A stretch of DNA of 64,000 bases from an uncultured Candidatus Saccharibacteria bacterium (GCA_964354975.1 CAYHBS010000002.1:16088-80087); one strand, 5' to 3'. Counted from the first letter of the stretch, positions 60,829 to 63,581 are shown. Made by a program: numbers and translations. Notes: generated from the letters alone by a model not told the origin.

Positions 60829-61032
60829 GTGACTTCACGAAATCCCCGAAGCTGGAAAAAATTCATCCGCACCAAAAAGGCGGAACTTCGTCGTGCTGGT
60901 ACTCCAGATGCAGACGTAAAAACCATCATCGCGAGTGAATATGCGCGTCTCAAAATAGCCCCAGCGGCACCCGTAGAGAAAAAACCTTCTAAGAAAGCAA
61001 AGGCAGGCAAAACAAAAAAAACTTCCAAGTGA
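60829..61032 (+). CDS. Small Lys-rich basic protein, hypothetical
   Basis: 67 aa, with the C-terminal tail KKPSKKAKAGKTKKTSK. Confidence 0.3.
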   Translation: MTSRNPRSWKKFIRTKKAELRRAGTPDADVKTIIASEYARLKIAPAAPVEKKPSKKAKAGKTKKTSK

Positions 61033-61070
61033 AGTAATCTTGATATTCAATAGTCACTCGCAATCCTACT

Positions 61071-61625
61071 ATGAGGAGCGAGAAACCCCAACCCAAACGC
61101 AAATCTACGCAACGCTCTTTTCATAAAAATGTAGCAGTATTTCGGCGCGAGGGAAGTAATCAGGAGGTCGTCGCTATGCTCCACAATATTCGTTCCCTGC
61201 AAAATGTCGGAGCGATGTTTCGCACCGCTGACGCCGCTGGCATCCAAAGGATTATTCTCACGGGGTATACTCCGACACCACTGAATCTTCTTGGTGAAGT
61301 ACGAACAGAGTTTGCAAAAACTGCGCTTGGTGCAGAGCGGAGCGTGCAGTGGGAGCAGAAAAAGAATATTTCATCCGTTATTTCACAGTTAAAAAGTGAG
61401 GGACATAACATCTATGCCATTGAAGAGACAATGGGAGCAAAAAATATTTTTACATACAGAACAAAAAAGCCCTGCGCGTTTGTTGTGGGGAACGAGGTCA
61501 CTGGTCTTTCTCGCGCCGTGCTCGTGAAGTGTGATGCGGTACTCGCAATTCCGATGAAGGGAATAAAAGAGTCGCTCAATGTATCTGTAGCATTTGGAAT
61601 CGCCGCGTACGAAATCGTAAAATAA
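61071..61625 (+). CDS. SpoU/TrmH-family RNA 2'-O-methyltransferase
   Basis: SPOUT motifs LHNIRSLQNVGAMFRTADAAG, FVVGNEVTGLS and AIPMKG...SLNVSVAFGIAAYEI. Confidence 0.8.
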   Translation: MRSEKPQPKRKSTQRSFHKNVAVFRREGSNQEVVAMLHNIRSLQNVGAMFRTADAAGIQRIILTGYTPTPLNLLGEVRTEFAKTALGAERSVQWEQKKNISSVISQLKSEGHNIYAIEETMGAKNIFTYRTKKPCAFVVGNEVTGLSRAVLVKCDAVLAIPMKGIKESLNVSVAFGIAAYEIVK

Positions 61626-61659
61626 AAAAAATAGACCCCCAGCGCCGTCACTGGGGGTC
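61622..61659 (-). terminator. Rho-independent terminator (minus-strand sense): GACCCCCAGtgacggcgCTGGGGGTC followed by T9
   Basis: 9-bp GC stem followed on the minus strand by TTTTTTTTT. Downstream of the minus-strand promoter at 62021-62049. Confidence 0.7.
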
Positions 61660-62014
61660 CTAAACTGTTCGCCTATTGGCTAACTACAAACTTGCCGTCC
61701 CTACCCTCTCTTTTTGGTAAATATCCGACCGGTTGTGTCGGTCAGTGTCCGCGCTCACGTCGACGCTTGTTGCGTCGCCCTCGTGTCCCGTCGTCGCTCT
61801 TGCGGAGTCGACGCTGGAGATCTTCCAAGTCCACTTCGGCGACACTGTTCCTGTCGCTCACCTCGTAGTAGGTGGCATTCGAACTTCTTGTGTCGTCGCA
61901 CCAGATGGGCAACACCCTTCGACACCCATCTCCGAGTAACTCCTTCGGAACCATTCCGCTCATCCTCTCCATCCTCCACTGAAGATTGGAACGCCGCCGC
62001 AAGTGAGCCAAAGT
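61660..62014 (-). ncRNA. Candidate about 390-nt transcript (ncRNA or small unconventional ORF) bounded by a consensus promoter and a terminator
   Basis: No convincing ORF or SD in any frame. GC-richer than the flanks. I could not match it to RNase P RNA, tmRNA, SRP RNA or 6S RNA by eye. Confidence 0.3.
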
Positions 62015-62020
62015 TACGTT

Positions 62021-62049
62021 CGATATGGAGTATACTATGTGACGCCATA
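62021..62049 (-). promoter_or_regulatory. Consensus sigma70-type promoter on the minus strand (TTGACA-17-TATACT)
   Basis: -35 TTGACA (62049-62044) and -10 TATACT (62026-62021) with a 17-nt spacer. Confidence 0.6.
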
Positions 62050-62067
62050 TCTGTCAAGCGCGTGTAA

Positions 62068-62078
62068 GAAATAGTTGT
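62068..62078 (+). promoter_or_regulatory. Extended -10 promoter element (TGcTATAAT) for the hydrolase gene
   Basis: TGCTATAAT at 62070-62078, 24 bp upstream of ATG 62102. Divergent from the minus-strand promoter. Confidence 0.5.
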
Positions 62079-62101
62079 GCTATAATGTAAAAACTCTATA
62101 T

Positions 62102-62776
62102 ATGGCAATGCAAAATAGTATTTCTACCATCACACTGACCACTACCGACAACACGCGTATTGTGGGGGATTACTATCACGGATCCACGAGTGCGGGTGTA
62201 CTACTCCTACATATGATGCCGGCAACGCGTGAGTCATGGGACGATATTGCGCTGAAATTTCAGGATCATGGATTTCACGTACTTGCGATTGATTTGCGGG
62301 GGCATGGAGAATCAGAAGGGGGGCCGGATGGCTTTCGCTCATTTTCAGATAGACAGCATCAAGCGAGTATTCATGACGCGGAAGCGGCAGTGGCATATTT
62401 GAGGTCGCAAGGAGCCATCGAACTCCATGTGATGGGCGCGTCCATCGGTGCAAATCTTTCGCTCCAAATGCTCGCACGTGATGCTGACGTGGTATCCGCA
62501 ATCTGTATTTCACCCGGCCTCGATTATTATGGCATCCGCACAATTCCATTTGCAGATAAGACGCGGGGAGATCAATCCATCATGCTACTTGCTGCTCGTG
62601 ACGACACACGCATGGGAGAGGAGCAACCAGACACCATACTAAAACACATTGCAGATGCCGCACATGGACGGGCGCAAGTAGAAATTTTTGATGAAGGAGG
62701 GCACGGGACAGATTTATTGAAACATTGGCCAGATTATGTCGGTACCATTATTGATTGGACGCAAGGGCACGAATAA
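62102..62776 (+). CDS. Alpha/beta-hydrolase fold protein
   Basis: Nucleophile elbow G-x-S-x-G (MGASIG), HGFHVLAIDLRGHGES lid region, and C-terminal GGHG. Confidence 0.7.
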   Translation: MAMQNSISTITLTTTDNTRIVGDYYHGSTSAGVLLLHMMPATRESWDDIALKFQDHGFHVLAIDLRGHGESEGGPDGFRSFSDRQHQASIHDAEAAVAYLRSQGAIELHVMGASIGANLSLQMLARDADVVSAICISPGLDYYGIRTIPFADKTRGDQSIMLLAARDDTRMGEEQPDTILKHIADAAHGRAQVEIFDEGGHGTDLLKHWPDYVGTIIDWTQGHE

Positions 62777-62777
62777 T

Positions 62778-63581
62778 ATGGAGCACGATATTGTTTTTGA
62801 CATAGAAACAGAAAAATCATTCGATGAAGTCGGAGGGCGAGACCATCTCACCGATCTTGGTGTTACTGTGGTCGGCGTGTATTCATACTCCGATAATTCA
62901 TATTATGCGTATGAAGCGAATGAATTTCAGAAACTGACGGAGGTACTCAAAGGCGCTCGCCGACTTATTGGTTTTAACATTCGTGATTTTGATATTCCGG
63001 TGCTTGCGCCGCACGTTGGTGTGAACCTTTTTTCGCTCCAAATGCTCGATTTGATGGACGATGTGGCGCGGGGCGCGGGGTTTCGTATTTCTCTCGATAG
63101 TCTCGCAAAGGCAACGCTGGGAGCTGAAAAGTCAGGACATGGACTCGACGCAATCACGTGGTGGCGCGCGGGAGAGAAAGAAAAAGTGAAATCATACTGT
63201 TTGCAGGACGTGCGTCTTACAAAAGACTTGTACGAATATGGCAGCCAGCGAGGCGAAGTATATTTCATTTCAAAATATGGAGGAGGAAAGGTCACAGTGC
63301 CGGTACGGTGGCGTGAAATTTCGCAACATGATGTGCCACATTTGGTGAAGCGCGCATATGACGAGCGCAAAACCATCGTGGTGAAGCTGTTGATGTCATC
63401 TGCGTCAAAGGAAAATCCAGAAACACGCGTGGACGTTACGCACATTGACCGAAAATCATTCGAGGGGTACTCTCACGAACGGAAGGCAACGCGCACGTTT
63501 CCGTTCGATGCGGTTGCTTCAATCACGCTCACTGACCACACGTATTTACTTGAACAAGATGTCCAACAAACACTTATCTAA
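62778..63581 (+). CDS. DEDD-family 3'-5' exonuclease (RNase H-like)
   Basis: Exo I (IVFDIETEK), Exo II region (GFNIRDFDIPVL) and Exo III (YCLQDVRLTKDLYEY). Confidence 0.65.
   Translation: MEHDIVFDIETEKSFDEVGGRDHLTDLGVTVVGVYSYSDNSYYAYEANEFQKLTEVLKGARRLIGFNIRDFDIPVLAPHVGVNLFSLQMLDLMDDVARGAGFRISLDSLAKATLGAEKSGHGLDAITWWRAGEKEKVKSYCLQDVRLTKDLYEYGSQRGEVYFISKYGGGKVTVPVRWREISQHDVPHLVKRAYDERKTIVVKLLMSSASKENPETRVDVTHIDRKSFEGYSHERKATRTFPFDAVASITLTDHTYLLEQDVQQTLI

What the first reader, a model, noticed from the sequence alone, without database searches (positions are those of the whole stretch)
61622..62049. Candidate about 390-nt non-coding (or cryptic small-protein) transcript between trmH and the hydrolase gene
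A consensus minus-strand promoter (TTGACA-17-TATACT) and, about 390 nt downstream, a strong minus-sense intrinsic terminator enclose a GC-richer segment with no SD-preceded ORF. The best minus-strand frames start with TTG or an internal ATG and encode an Arg-rich 70-89-aa peptide of no known family. I could not match it to RNase P RNA, tmRNA, SRP RNA or 6S RNA by inspection.
Basis: seen in the sequence. Interest (0 to 1): 0.55.

Follow-up and report, generated by a model that had tools for sequence, protein, structure and literature searches.

The report
Unannotated small protein gene, not ncRNA
The promoter-to-terminator unit between trmH and the hydrolase gene is a real, conserved transcription unit, but it encodes a fast-evolving 73-residue protein of no known family, found only in one small group of groundwater Patescibacteria, and is not a structured non-coding RNA.

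Summary
A near-consensus minus-strand promoter (TTGACA-17-TATACT, 62057-62029) and a strong intrinsic terminator (61660-61633 plus T8) bracket about 398 nt of GC-richer DNA with no Rfam match. One detail is wrong: ATG 61963 has a GGAGG 9 nt upstream and opens a 73-codon ORF (61963-61742).

Six further species of the same genus-level clade keep the unit between trmH and the hydrolase gene. Each has an SD-preceded ORF of 64-79 codons. Substitutions among close orthologues are mostly synonymous (dN/dS 0.06-0.21; differences by codon position 8/2/21), shifted frames show no such bias, and the length difference between window and L040 is an in-frame 27 nt. The ORF segment does not fold better than shuffles (z -0.8). 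So this is a protein-coding gene.

The protein has a short N-terminal motif (DG-x(1-2)-R-x-V-x(0-2)-LP), an acidic middle and an Arg-rich tail (…RGH). It matched nothing in Pfam, NCBIfam, PHROGs, PADLOC, PDB or two very large protein collections.

Unusually, the promoter and a 5'-terminal hairpin are better conserved (50-62% invariant positions) than the coding region (17%). Function is unknown. My best guess is an abundant nucleic-acid-binding small protein made from a stabilised mRNA.

The parts
62052..62057 (-). -35 hexamer TTGACA
   Evidence: Invariant in all 7 species. The flanking GCTTGACA is also conserved.
62029..62034 (-). -10 hexamer TATACT, with a conserved TAG just upstream
   Evidence: It reads TAGTAT[AG][CT]T in all 7 species.
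61989..62021 (-). 5'-terminal stem-loop of the mRNA: GAACGU...GCGUUC, 6 bp plus an inner 3-bp stem. It starts 0-5 nt from the inferred transcription start (about 62022).
   Evidence: RNAalifold on 7 species. Five pairs are invariant. The sixth is U-G in 3 species, U-A in 3 and C-G in 1. 62% of positions are invariant in a 4-species comparison, against 17% in the CDS. The transcription start is inferred from the distance to the -10 hexamer and has not been measured.
61985..61988 (-). Conserved unpaired CCAAU-type stretch just 3' of the hairpin
   Evidence: CCAA[UA] in 6 of 7 species and CGAAA in L039.
61973..61977 (-). Shine-Dalgarno GGAGG, 9 nt upstream of the start codon
   Evidence: GGAGG is invariant in 7 species, and the spacing to the start codon is 5-10 nt in all of them. 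The ATG that abuts the SD (61972-61970) is out of frame in L040 and L037, so it is not the conserved start.
61742..61963 (-). Coding sequence of a 73-residue protein (MSGMVPKELLGDGCRRVLPIW...RRRERGH), stop codon included
   Evidence: ORF. Orthologous ORFs are. dN/dS is 0.06-0.21 and the window-L040 length difference is an in-frame 27 nt. No family match was found.
61726..61744 (-). Small hairpin overlapping the stop codon (UGACCG...CGGUCG)
   Evidence: RNAalifold. Present in 4 of 6 species, changed on both sides in L004, and deleted in L043. Support is weak.
61697..61711 (-). SD-like purine block in the 3' UTR: AGAGAGGGTAGGGAC here, AAGGAGGATAGGGAA in relatives
   Evidence: It is conserved in 6 species. 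No conserved ORF follows it (read from the sequences). Its role is unknown.
61624..61660 (-). Intrinsic terminator: 12-bp stem at 61660-61633 and T8 at 61631-61624. The T-run overlaps the stop codon of the convergent trmH gene.
   Evidence: It is conserved, with G-C to A-U double changes, and relatives carry a GNRA (GCAA or GAAA) tetraloop.

Best explanation
This is a monocistronic small-protein gene.

Shown or directly supported:
- A near-consensus sigma-70-type promoter precedes the unit.
- The predicted mRNA is about 398 nt. It has a 5' UTR of about 58 nt that begins with a conserved hairpin, a strong GGAGG ribosome-binding site, a 73-codon ORF, a 3' UTR of about 115 nt, and a strong intrinsic terminator that abuts the convergent trmH gene.
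- The ORF is translated and under purifying selection.
- The gene is confined to one genus-level clade of groundwater Patescibacteria. Between sub-clades it evolves much faster than its neighbours.

Inferred from anatomy:
- The 5'-terminal hairpin, the strong promoter and the strong SD point to a stable, highly expressed message.
- The protein is hydrophilic and probably largely disordered. It has no signal peptide or membrane segment, so I infer it is cytoplasmic.
- It has a short conserved N-terminal motif (DG-x(1-2)-R-x-V-x(0-2)-LP), an acidic centre and an Arg/Lys-rich C-terminal tail that usually ends in RGH.

My best guess at function, at about 25-30% likelihood, is this. The basic tail binds nucleic acid (RNA, the ribosome or DNA), and the N-terminal motif docks to a conserved partner.
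For: Transcription signals: with conservation shown.

Coding status:
- An SD-preceded ORF of 64-79 codons sits at the same position in all 6 species with complete sequence, and the 5' part of one is present in a 7th.
- Nei-Gojobori dN/dS is 0.21, 0.12 and 0.064 for L037/L039, L037/L043 and L039/L043. Differences by codon position are 12/6/16, 9/6/24 and 8/2/21.
- The same pairs read in shifted frames show no synonymous excess.
- For window versus L040, pS is 0.67 and pN 0.28, and the CDS lengths differ by 27 nt, in frame.
- Between window and L004, 7 of the 14 codons that encode KEL-GDGC-R-LPI differ only synonymously, including TTA/CTG, AGG/CGA and TTG/CTC.
- The conserved 5'-UTR block GGCGGCGTTCC is read in a different frame in L037 than in window and L004, so it is not coding.
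- ORFs in the other frames and on the other strand are not conserved.

Against a structured RNA body: the CDS fold has z = -0.79, and there is no Rfam match.

Protein properties: GRAVY is -0.7 to -1.3, the best 15-residue hydropathy window is at most 1.06, and charge by thirds is for example -1/-4/+9.

Lineage restriction:
- The collection of 5.8 billion non-redundant proteins returned only the query itself.
- HMMER against 1.84 billion representatives returned only the query plus three long proteins, each matched in 4-7 short stretches, which I take to be low-complexity hits.
- More distant genomes, found through TrmH or through hydrolases about 50% identical, lack the gene at this position.
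Against: - Codon usage of the window ORF is atypical for this genome. Its score is -0.09 per codon, below every 73-codon window of 32 long genes (mean 0.28, minimum -0.055).
- ORF length alone is not significant in this T-poor sequence (p about 0.08).
- The two protein sub-families are barely alignable, at about 30% identity, with pairwise BLASTP E-values of 0.56 and 2.8.
- Two AlphaFold2 models have low confidence (pLDDT 59.5 and 57.8) and disagree, one being beta strands plus a helix and the other all-helical. There is therefore no fold evidence.
- There are no expression data.
- Nothing tested here bears directly on nucleic-acid binding. The basic tail is not well conserved in L004, and net charge ranges from +5 to -4 across orthologues.
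Confidence: 0.85

Rival explanations
1. Dual-function RNA. The transcript encodes the small protein, and it also acts as a regulatory RNA through its conserved 5' or 3' UTR. One form of this would be a 3'-UTR-derived sRNA that carries the conserved purine block just upstream of the terminator.
For: The UTRs are conserved at the nucleotide level more strongly than the CDS. The 5' hairpin region has 62% invariant positions and the promoter 50%, against 17% for the CDS. A 15-nt purine block and other short blocks in the 3' UTR are conserved in 6 species, and no conserved ORF follows them. At about 400 nt, with its own promoter and terminator, the unit has the size and layout of known dual-function sRNAs.
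Against: No target is known or was searched for. The conserved 5' features are just what an mRNA needs: a promoter, a 5' stabiliser hairpin and an SD. The 3' UTR outside the terminator is only 23% invariant. Pairing between the 5' and 3' UTRs is not consistently better than shuffles, with z from -2.1 to +0.6 across 6 species. There are no copies of either conserved block elsewhere in the 64-kb window.
Confidence: 0.1
2. Small DNA-binding transcription regulator of the ribbon-helix-helix or AbrB type. It would be encoded divergently from the alpha/beta-hydrolase gene and would control that gene or itself.
For: The layout is divergent, with the hydrolase start only about 140 nt from the small gene's start. 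The protein has the size of such regulators. By eye, the R-x-V-x-LP motif followed by LDELD in the L037 type resembles the N-terminal strand and first helix of RHH proteins, and GR-V-V-IP of AbrB. The tail is basic.
Against: Pfam scans of all six members at E<=1 gave no RHH, AbrB, MazE or other DNA-binding family. The stretch between the two promoters is poorly conserved, at 27% invariant positions, so there is no conserved operator there. Prolines interrupt the would-be helices. The structure models are uninformative.
Confidence: 0.08
3. Pure non-coding RNA of about 390 nt. The ORF would be an accident of the T-poor composition.
For: ORF length alone is not significant (p about 0.08) and codon usage is atypical. 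The whole transcript folds somewhat better than shuffles (z = -2.73). The UTRs are conserved.
Against: dN/dS is 0.06-0.21, with differences concentrated at third codon positions and an in-frame length difference. The frame, the start codon and the SD spacing are kept in all species. Folding of the ORF segment alone gives z = -0.79, so I take the excess seen in the full transcript to come from the terminator and the UTRs. There is no Rfam match.
Confidence: 0.03
4. Leader peptide or attenuator, or a type I toxin.
For: It is a small ORF followed by a strong terminator.
Against: Nothing lies downstream in the same orientation, because the terminator abuts the 3' end of the convergent trmH gene. 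There is therefore nothing to attenuate. The peptide is strongly hydrophilic (GRAVY -1.27, best 15-residue hydropathy window 0.39), unlike membrane-active type I toxins. No antisense promoter or conserved antisense ORF was seen.
Confidence: 0.01

Closest known systems
Lineage-restricted (orphan) small protein genes of under 100 codons that annotation pipelines miss
   Same: It has 73 codons, its own promoter, SD and terminator, no family match and atypical codon usage. Some gene callers call it. The protein collection lists only ENA and Logan as sources, although the neighbouring hydrolase of this genome has an NCBI accession. It evolves fast between sub-clades and is under purifying selection within them.
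   Different: Nothing differs in kind. The unusual point is that the promoter and 5' UTR are as conserved as housekeeping genes while the CDS is the fastest-evolving feature of the locus.
Dual-function sRNAs such as SgrS/SgrT, RNAIII/hld and SR1/SR1P (from general knowledge)
   Same: It is a short monocistronic transcript of a few hundred nt with a small ORF and conserved untranslated parts.
   Different: The ORF occupies about 56% of the transcript. There is no known target and no C/U-rich seed. The conserved 5' elements are explained by expression signals alone. No base-pairing function was shown.
5'-terminal stabiliser stem-loops and SD-like stabilisers of bacterial mRNAs, such as the ompA 5' UTR, the aprE leader and cryIIIA STAB-SD (from general knowledge)
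   Same: A conserved hairpin sits within a few nt of the inferred 5' end, a strong GGAGG follows, and a second SD-like block is present in the transcript.
   Different: The 5' end has not been mapped and half-life has not been measured. The second SD-like block lies in the 3' UTR, whereas STAB-SD lies in the 5' UTR.
Small basic ribosome- or nucleoid-associated proteins such as bS21, Sra and HU-like proteins (from general knowledge)
   Same: The size is similar, the tail is Arg/Lys-rich, and the expression signals look strong.
   Different: There is no sequence or profile similarity to any of them. Three of the six orthologues are net acidic, with pI about 5.1-5.3.

Membership tests
Any described RNA family (Rfam 15) | A covariance-model match at or above the family's gathering score | tested here: not met
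   The whole window gave only 4 tRNAs. Over 61500-62200 at E<=10 there were only two chance hits on the terminator (rimP leader E = 9, NsiR1 E = 8).
Structured non-coding RNA (generic) | Folding energy better than shuffles, and base pairs kept by compensatory change across the body of the transcript | tested here: not met
   The ORF segment has z = -0.79. Pair support is limited to a short 5' hairpin, with one pair varying on one side only, and to the terminator.
Protein-coding gene | An open frame with a start codon and SD is kept in the orthologues | tested here: met
   There are 6 complete ORFs of 64-79 codons and 1 partial one. GGAGG lies 5-10 nt upstream of the start in all.
Protein-coding gene | An excess of synonymous over non-synonymous change in that frame only | tested here: met
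   dN/dS is 0.064-0.21. Differences by codon position are 8/2/21 for L039 versus L043. Shifted frames show pS at or below pN.
Protein-coding gene | Length differences are multiples of three | tested here: met
   Window and L040 differ by 27 nt. L037, L039 and L043 have no indels in the CDS, whereas their UTRs differ in length.
Protein-coding gene | Codon usage typical of the genome | tested here: not met
   The score is -0.09 per codon, below all 73-codon windows of 32 long genes (minimum -0.055). The annotated frame is still the best of the three sense frames, and an antisense frame scores almost the same (-0.106).
Known protein families (Pfam, NCBIfam, PHROGs, PADLOC, PDB sequences) | A significant profile match | tested here: not met
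   The best match was DUF3563 at E = 0.018 and 15 bits, against a cut-off of 26.9 bits.
AbrB/MazE/SpoVT swapped-hairpin DNA binders | Profile-profile similarity over the roughly 45-residue domain | tested here: not met
   hhalign gave a probability of 0.4% over 5 aligned columns. No Pfam PF04014 hit was found.
Ribbon-helix-helix regulators | A match to RHH profiles, with an N-terminal strand followed by two helices | tested here: not met
   No RHH family matched at E<=1 for any of the 6 members. The AF2 models are of low confidence and discordant. No profile-profile test was run.
Type I toxin | A hydrophobic, membrane-spanning small peptide with an antisense RNA | tested here: not met
   GRAVY is -1.27 and the best 15-residue hydropathy window is 0.39. 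No antisense promoter was seen.
Leader peptide / transcription attenuator | A regulated gene downstream on the same strand | tested here: not met
   The terminator abuts the 3' end of the convergent trmH gene.
Dual-function sRNA | A base-pairing function on trans targets in addition to the ORF | not testable with these tools
   Only conservation of the UTR blocks can be shown. Most of the genome and any transcriptome data are unavailable.

The most novel reading that the evidence does not exclude
The constraint on this locus may lie mainly in the RNA. The promoter, the 5'-terminal hairpin with its CCAAU stretch, and the 3'-UTR purine block are kept across species, while the protein is almost free to change between sub-clades. 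That pattern would fit either of two things. One is a dual-function RNA whose UTRs regulate other genes. The other is an autoregulatory loop in which the small basic protein binds the conserved 5' hairpin of its own mRNA, as ribosomal-protein operons do. In the second case the protein would be a new ribosome- or RNA-associated factor specific to this Patescibacteria clade.
Probability: 0.12. Interest if true: 0.5.

Novelty: new member of a known kind. Interest (0 to 1): 0.25.

Why it matters
The practical value is for annotation. A real gene sits in what looks like a 450-nt gap in this Patescibacteria genome and its relatives. The protein collection lists it only from ENA and Logan gene calls. 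In three of the related loci the callers called nothing, or only a fragment, between trmH and the hydrolase gene. It defines a previously undescribed small-protein family, found in 7 species so far. Patescibacteria have tiny genomes in which little is dispensable. A strongly promoted, clade-specific, rapidly evolving small protein is therefore a reasonable candidate for a lineage-specific function, but nothing here shows what that function is. The case also makes a methodological point. Evidence from this genome alone (ORF length, codon usage) was ambiguous, and the question was settled by the substitution patterns of six relatives.

Tried and rejected
- **Rfam.** Searches at gathering scores and at permissive thresholds found nothing.
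- **Protein homology, large collections.**
  - The word-indexed search of 5.8 billion proteins returned only the query for the window protein and nothing for the L004 orthologue.
  - HMMER against 1.84 billion representatives returned the query plus three long proteins, each matched in 4-7 short stretches, which I dismissed as low-complexity hits.
- **Protein homology, curated libraries and phage collections.**
  - Pfam, NCBIfam, PHROGs and PADLOC gave no hit.
  - A profile search of PDB sequences gave no hit.
  - tblastn against phage records gave nothing for the window protein and one chance hit at E = 0.7 for the L039 orthologue.
  - A viral-contig scan gave nothing.
  - A metagenome scan with a two-sequence alignment of the small protein gave nothing.
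- **AbrB-like idea.** It arose by eye from ELLG...RRVLPI against AbrB's DELGRVVIPI. I rejected it after hhalign gave a probability of 0.4%.
- **Structure.** AF2 on the single window sequence gave pLDDT 59.5, with beta strands plus a helix. AF2 on the L037 type with a 5-sequence alignment gave pLDDT 57.8, all helical. The two models disagree, so I treat both as uninformative. Foldseek against PDB gave a best E-value of 2.
- **Long-range pairing between the 5' and 3' UTRs.** The 3' GGGAACGC could pair with the 5' GCGUUCC. I rejected the idea because z ranges from -2.1 to +0.6 and the register differs between species.
- **SD sequestration by the UUCC stretch.** The possible pairing is only 4 bp and is broken in L039 (read).
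- **A second tiny ORF after the 3'-UTR SD-like block.** Start codons and frames are not conserved (read).
- **Plus-strand 117-codon ORF (61714-62067) and the other minus-strand 117-codon ORF.** Neither is conserved in L037.
- **More distant relatives.**
  - Of the loci found through TrmH, only L004 carries the gene or its motif.
  - L006 and L012 have other genes downstream of trmH.
  - Three genomes whose hydrolase is about 50% identical lack the gene.
- **Literature.** One search on small proteins in groundwater Patescibacteria found nothing relevant.

Full report
**1. What is in the sequence**

On the minus strand, TTGACA (62057-62052), a 17-nt spacer and TATACT (62034-62029) form an 11/12 match to the sigma-70 consensus. 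Only seven sites in the whole 64-kb window reach 11/12 or better, three of them perfect 12/12. This organism therefore uses such promoters, and this one is among its best.

About 370 nt downstream lies a 12-bp hairpin with 8 G-C pairs (61660-61633), followed by T8. The T-run overlaps the stop codon of the convergent trmH gene (SpoU methylase, Pfam E = 2e-33). The enclosed segment has 0.545-0.58 GC, against about 0.43-0.49 around it.

Rfam finds nothing here, either at gathering scores or at E<=10.

The observation therefore stands, with one correction. GGAGG (61977-61973) lies 9 nt upstream of ATG 61963, which opens a 73-codon ORF ending at TGA 61744-61742.

Gene callers had called exactly this ORF on three identical contigs. 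One is a Hainich aquifer ENA assembly and two are Logan assemblies (P0001).

**2. Relatives**

TrmH used as a probe gave one close genome, L004 (TrmH 67% identical), with a syntenic minus-strand ORF. The very conserved downstream exonuclease gave L037.

Hydrolase homologues fall into a tight group at 73-78% identity, followed by a gap down to 50%. Fetching their contigs brought the total to seven species:

- the window
- L004 (same species as L038)
- L037 (same species as L046)
- L039
- L040 (with L041 and L042)
- L043 (with L044 and L045)
- L047, which holds only the 5' part

All of them have the arrangement trmH, then the small gene on the opposite strand, then the hydrolase gene.

The gene is absent at this position in more distant genomes. 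Of the loci found through TrmH, only L004 carries the gene or its motif, and L006 and L012 have other genes downstream of trmH. Three genomes whose hydrolase is about 50% identical lack it too.

NCBI labels the window organism's hydrolase 'Patescibacteria group bacterium' (MEK7659692.1). The collection lists the small protein only from ENA and Logan.

**3. Coding or not**

Every species has an SD-preceded ORF of 64-79 codons at this position:

- Window: MSGMVPKELLGDGCRRVLPIW...RRRERGH
- L040: MRGVVPKELIGDGCKRVLPIW...RRSERGH
- L004: M(RV)RAIIKELTGDGCMRMLPI...
- L037, L039 and L043: MVDGNYRHVALP[SN]LDELD...ARRRGH
- L047: MRMLISDGGYRQVPELPDY...

Within the L037/L039/L043 group there are no indels. 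dN/dS is 0.21, 0.12 and 0.064. Differences by codon position are 12/6/16, 9/6/24 and 8/2/21. The same pairs read in shifted frames show no synonymous excess.

Window versus L040 gives pS 0.67 and pN 0.28, and the two coding sequences differ in length by 27 nt, in frame. Between window and L004, seven of the fourteen codons that encode KEL-GDGC-R-LPI differ only synonymously, three of them by two-base Leu or Arg swaps.

ORFs in the other frames and on the other strand are not kept in L037. The ORF segment taken as RNA folds no better than shuffles (z = -0.79). I take the z of -2.73 for the full transcript to come from the terminator and the UTRs.

Evidence from this genome alone is weak. A stop-free run of this length arises in about 8% of shuffles of this T-poor sequence. 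Codon usage scores below every comparable window of 32 long genes, and an antisense frame scores about as well as the annotated frame. The comparative evidence decides for a translated gene.

**4. Conservation pattern**

In a four-species alignment (window, L040, L004 and L043) the small CDS is the least conserved gene-associated feature at this locus. Only the non-homologous spacer before trmH is lower.

| Feature | Invariant positions |
|---|---|
| Small CDS | 17% |
| 3' UTR excluding the terminator | 23% |
| Promoter | 50% |
| trmH | 50% |
| ruvA | 55% |
| Hydrolase | 55% |
| 5'-UTR hairpin region | 62% |
| Exonuclease | 70% |

The block GGCGGCGTTCC in the 5' UTR is read in a different frame in L037 than in window and L004. 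Its conservation is therefore at the nucleotide level.

RNAalifold places a hairpin at the very start of the inferred transcript (62021-61989). Five pairs are invariant. A sixth is U-G, U-A or C-G depending on the species. There is also a 3-bp inner stem.

The 3' UTR has three features:

- a weak hairpin over the stop codon
- a conserved SD-like purine block, AAGGAGGATAGGGAA in relatives and AGAGAGGGTAGGGAC here
- the terminator, which in relatives carries a GNRA tetraloop and shows G-C to A-U double changes

Neither conserved block recurs elsewhere in the window. Pairing between the 5' and 3' UTRs is not consistently better than chance.

**5. The protein**

The protein is hydrophilic (GRAVY -0.7 to -1.3) and has no hydrophobic segment. 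In every orthologue the middle third is acidic and the last third basic. For the window protein the charges by thirds are -1, -4 and +9.

The only motif common to all seven species is DG-x(1-2)-R-x-V-x(0-2)-LP near the N-terminus. Five of the six complete orthologues end in RGH.

No similarity was found to any family or solved structure:

- Pfam, NCBIfam, PHROGs and PADLOC
- a profile search of PDB sequences
- the 5.8-billion-protein collection
- HMMER against 1.84 billion representatives
- phage records and viral contigs

An AbrB-like resemblance seen by eye was rejected by hhalign (probability 0.4%). Two AlphaFold2 models have low confidence and disagree with each other. Foldseek found nothing (best E = 2).

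**6. Most likely mechanism**

Shown:

- The unit is an independent, conserved transcription unit.
- It carries a translated ORF under purifying selection.

Inferred from anatomy:

- Expression is high, given the near-consensus promoter and the strong SD.
- The 5'-terminal hairpin stabilises the mRNA, by analogy with the ompA and aprE leaders (general knowledge).
- Termination is clean, so transcription does not run antisense into trmH.

Guessed, at about 25-30%: the Arg-rich tail binds RNA, the ribosome or DNA, and the N-terminal motif contacts a conserved partner.

The rivals are a dual-function RNA (about 10%), a divergently encoded small transcription regulator of the hydrolase gene (about 8%), a pure ncRNA (about 3%), and an attenuator or type I toxin (about 1%).

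**7. Verdict**

This is an ordinary kind of object: an unannotated, lineage-restricted small-protein gene. It belongs to a previously undescribed family. The one feature worth remembering is that the promoter and 5' UTR are more conserved than the protein.

Noticed in passing
window 60829-61032 (+): A second conserved small ORF of 67 residues lies between ruvA and trmH (MTSRNPRSWKKFIRTKK...KKAKAGKTKKTSK). It has a Lys-rich tail. Nucleotide identity is 70-79% in three relatives, and gene callers call it there as 68-69 residues. It has no Pfam hit and no PDB sequence hit. By eye, its N-terminal half (P-R-S-W-x-x-F...P...Y-A-R-L-K) recalls an HMG-box-like pattern. That resemblance is untested.
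   Followed up: partly
window 61033-61175 (+): The stretch upstream of the conserved trmH start (MLHNIRSL, 61176) does not align with relatives: only 7% of positions are invariant and pairwise identity is 9-15%. The longest window ORF nevertheless extends to ATG 61071. This looks like a lineage-specific insertion, or a replaced 5' region, in front of trmH.
   Followed up: no
L037 about 553-575, and two copies in L043 about 1950-2040 (locus coordinates, approximate): A palindromic element AATCCGGAAA(A)TATTTTCCGGATT sits between the small gene's terminator and trmH. It occurs once in L037 and twice in L043, and is absent from the window. It could be a second terminator that serves trmH, or a small REP- or MITE-like repeat.
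   Followed up: no
window 62775-63581 (+): The RNase_H_2-family 3'-5' exonuclease-like protein is 92% identical at the protein level between window and L004. TrmH is only 67% identical and the hydrolase 73-78% across the clade. This protein is under unusually strong constraint for this locus.
   Followed up: no
window 7955 (+), 51552 (+), 15368 (-): Three perfect 12/12 TTGACA-17-TATAAT promoters occur in the window. I did not look at which genes they drive.
   Followed up: no
window 61970-61972 (-) and the equivalent sites in L040 and L037: In most species an ATG directly abuts the GGAGG (GGAGGATG). It is in frame with the gene in window, L004 and L043. In L040 it is out of frame and opens an 18-codon overlapping ORF (counting the ATG), and in L037 it opens a 6-codon ORF (read). 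With zero spacing from the SD it is unlikely to initiate translation. The nucleotides are conserved all the same.
   Followed up: partly
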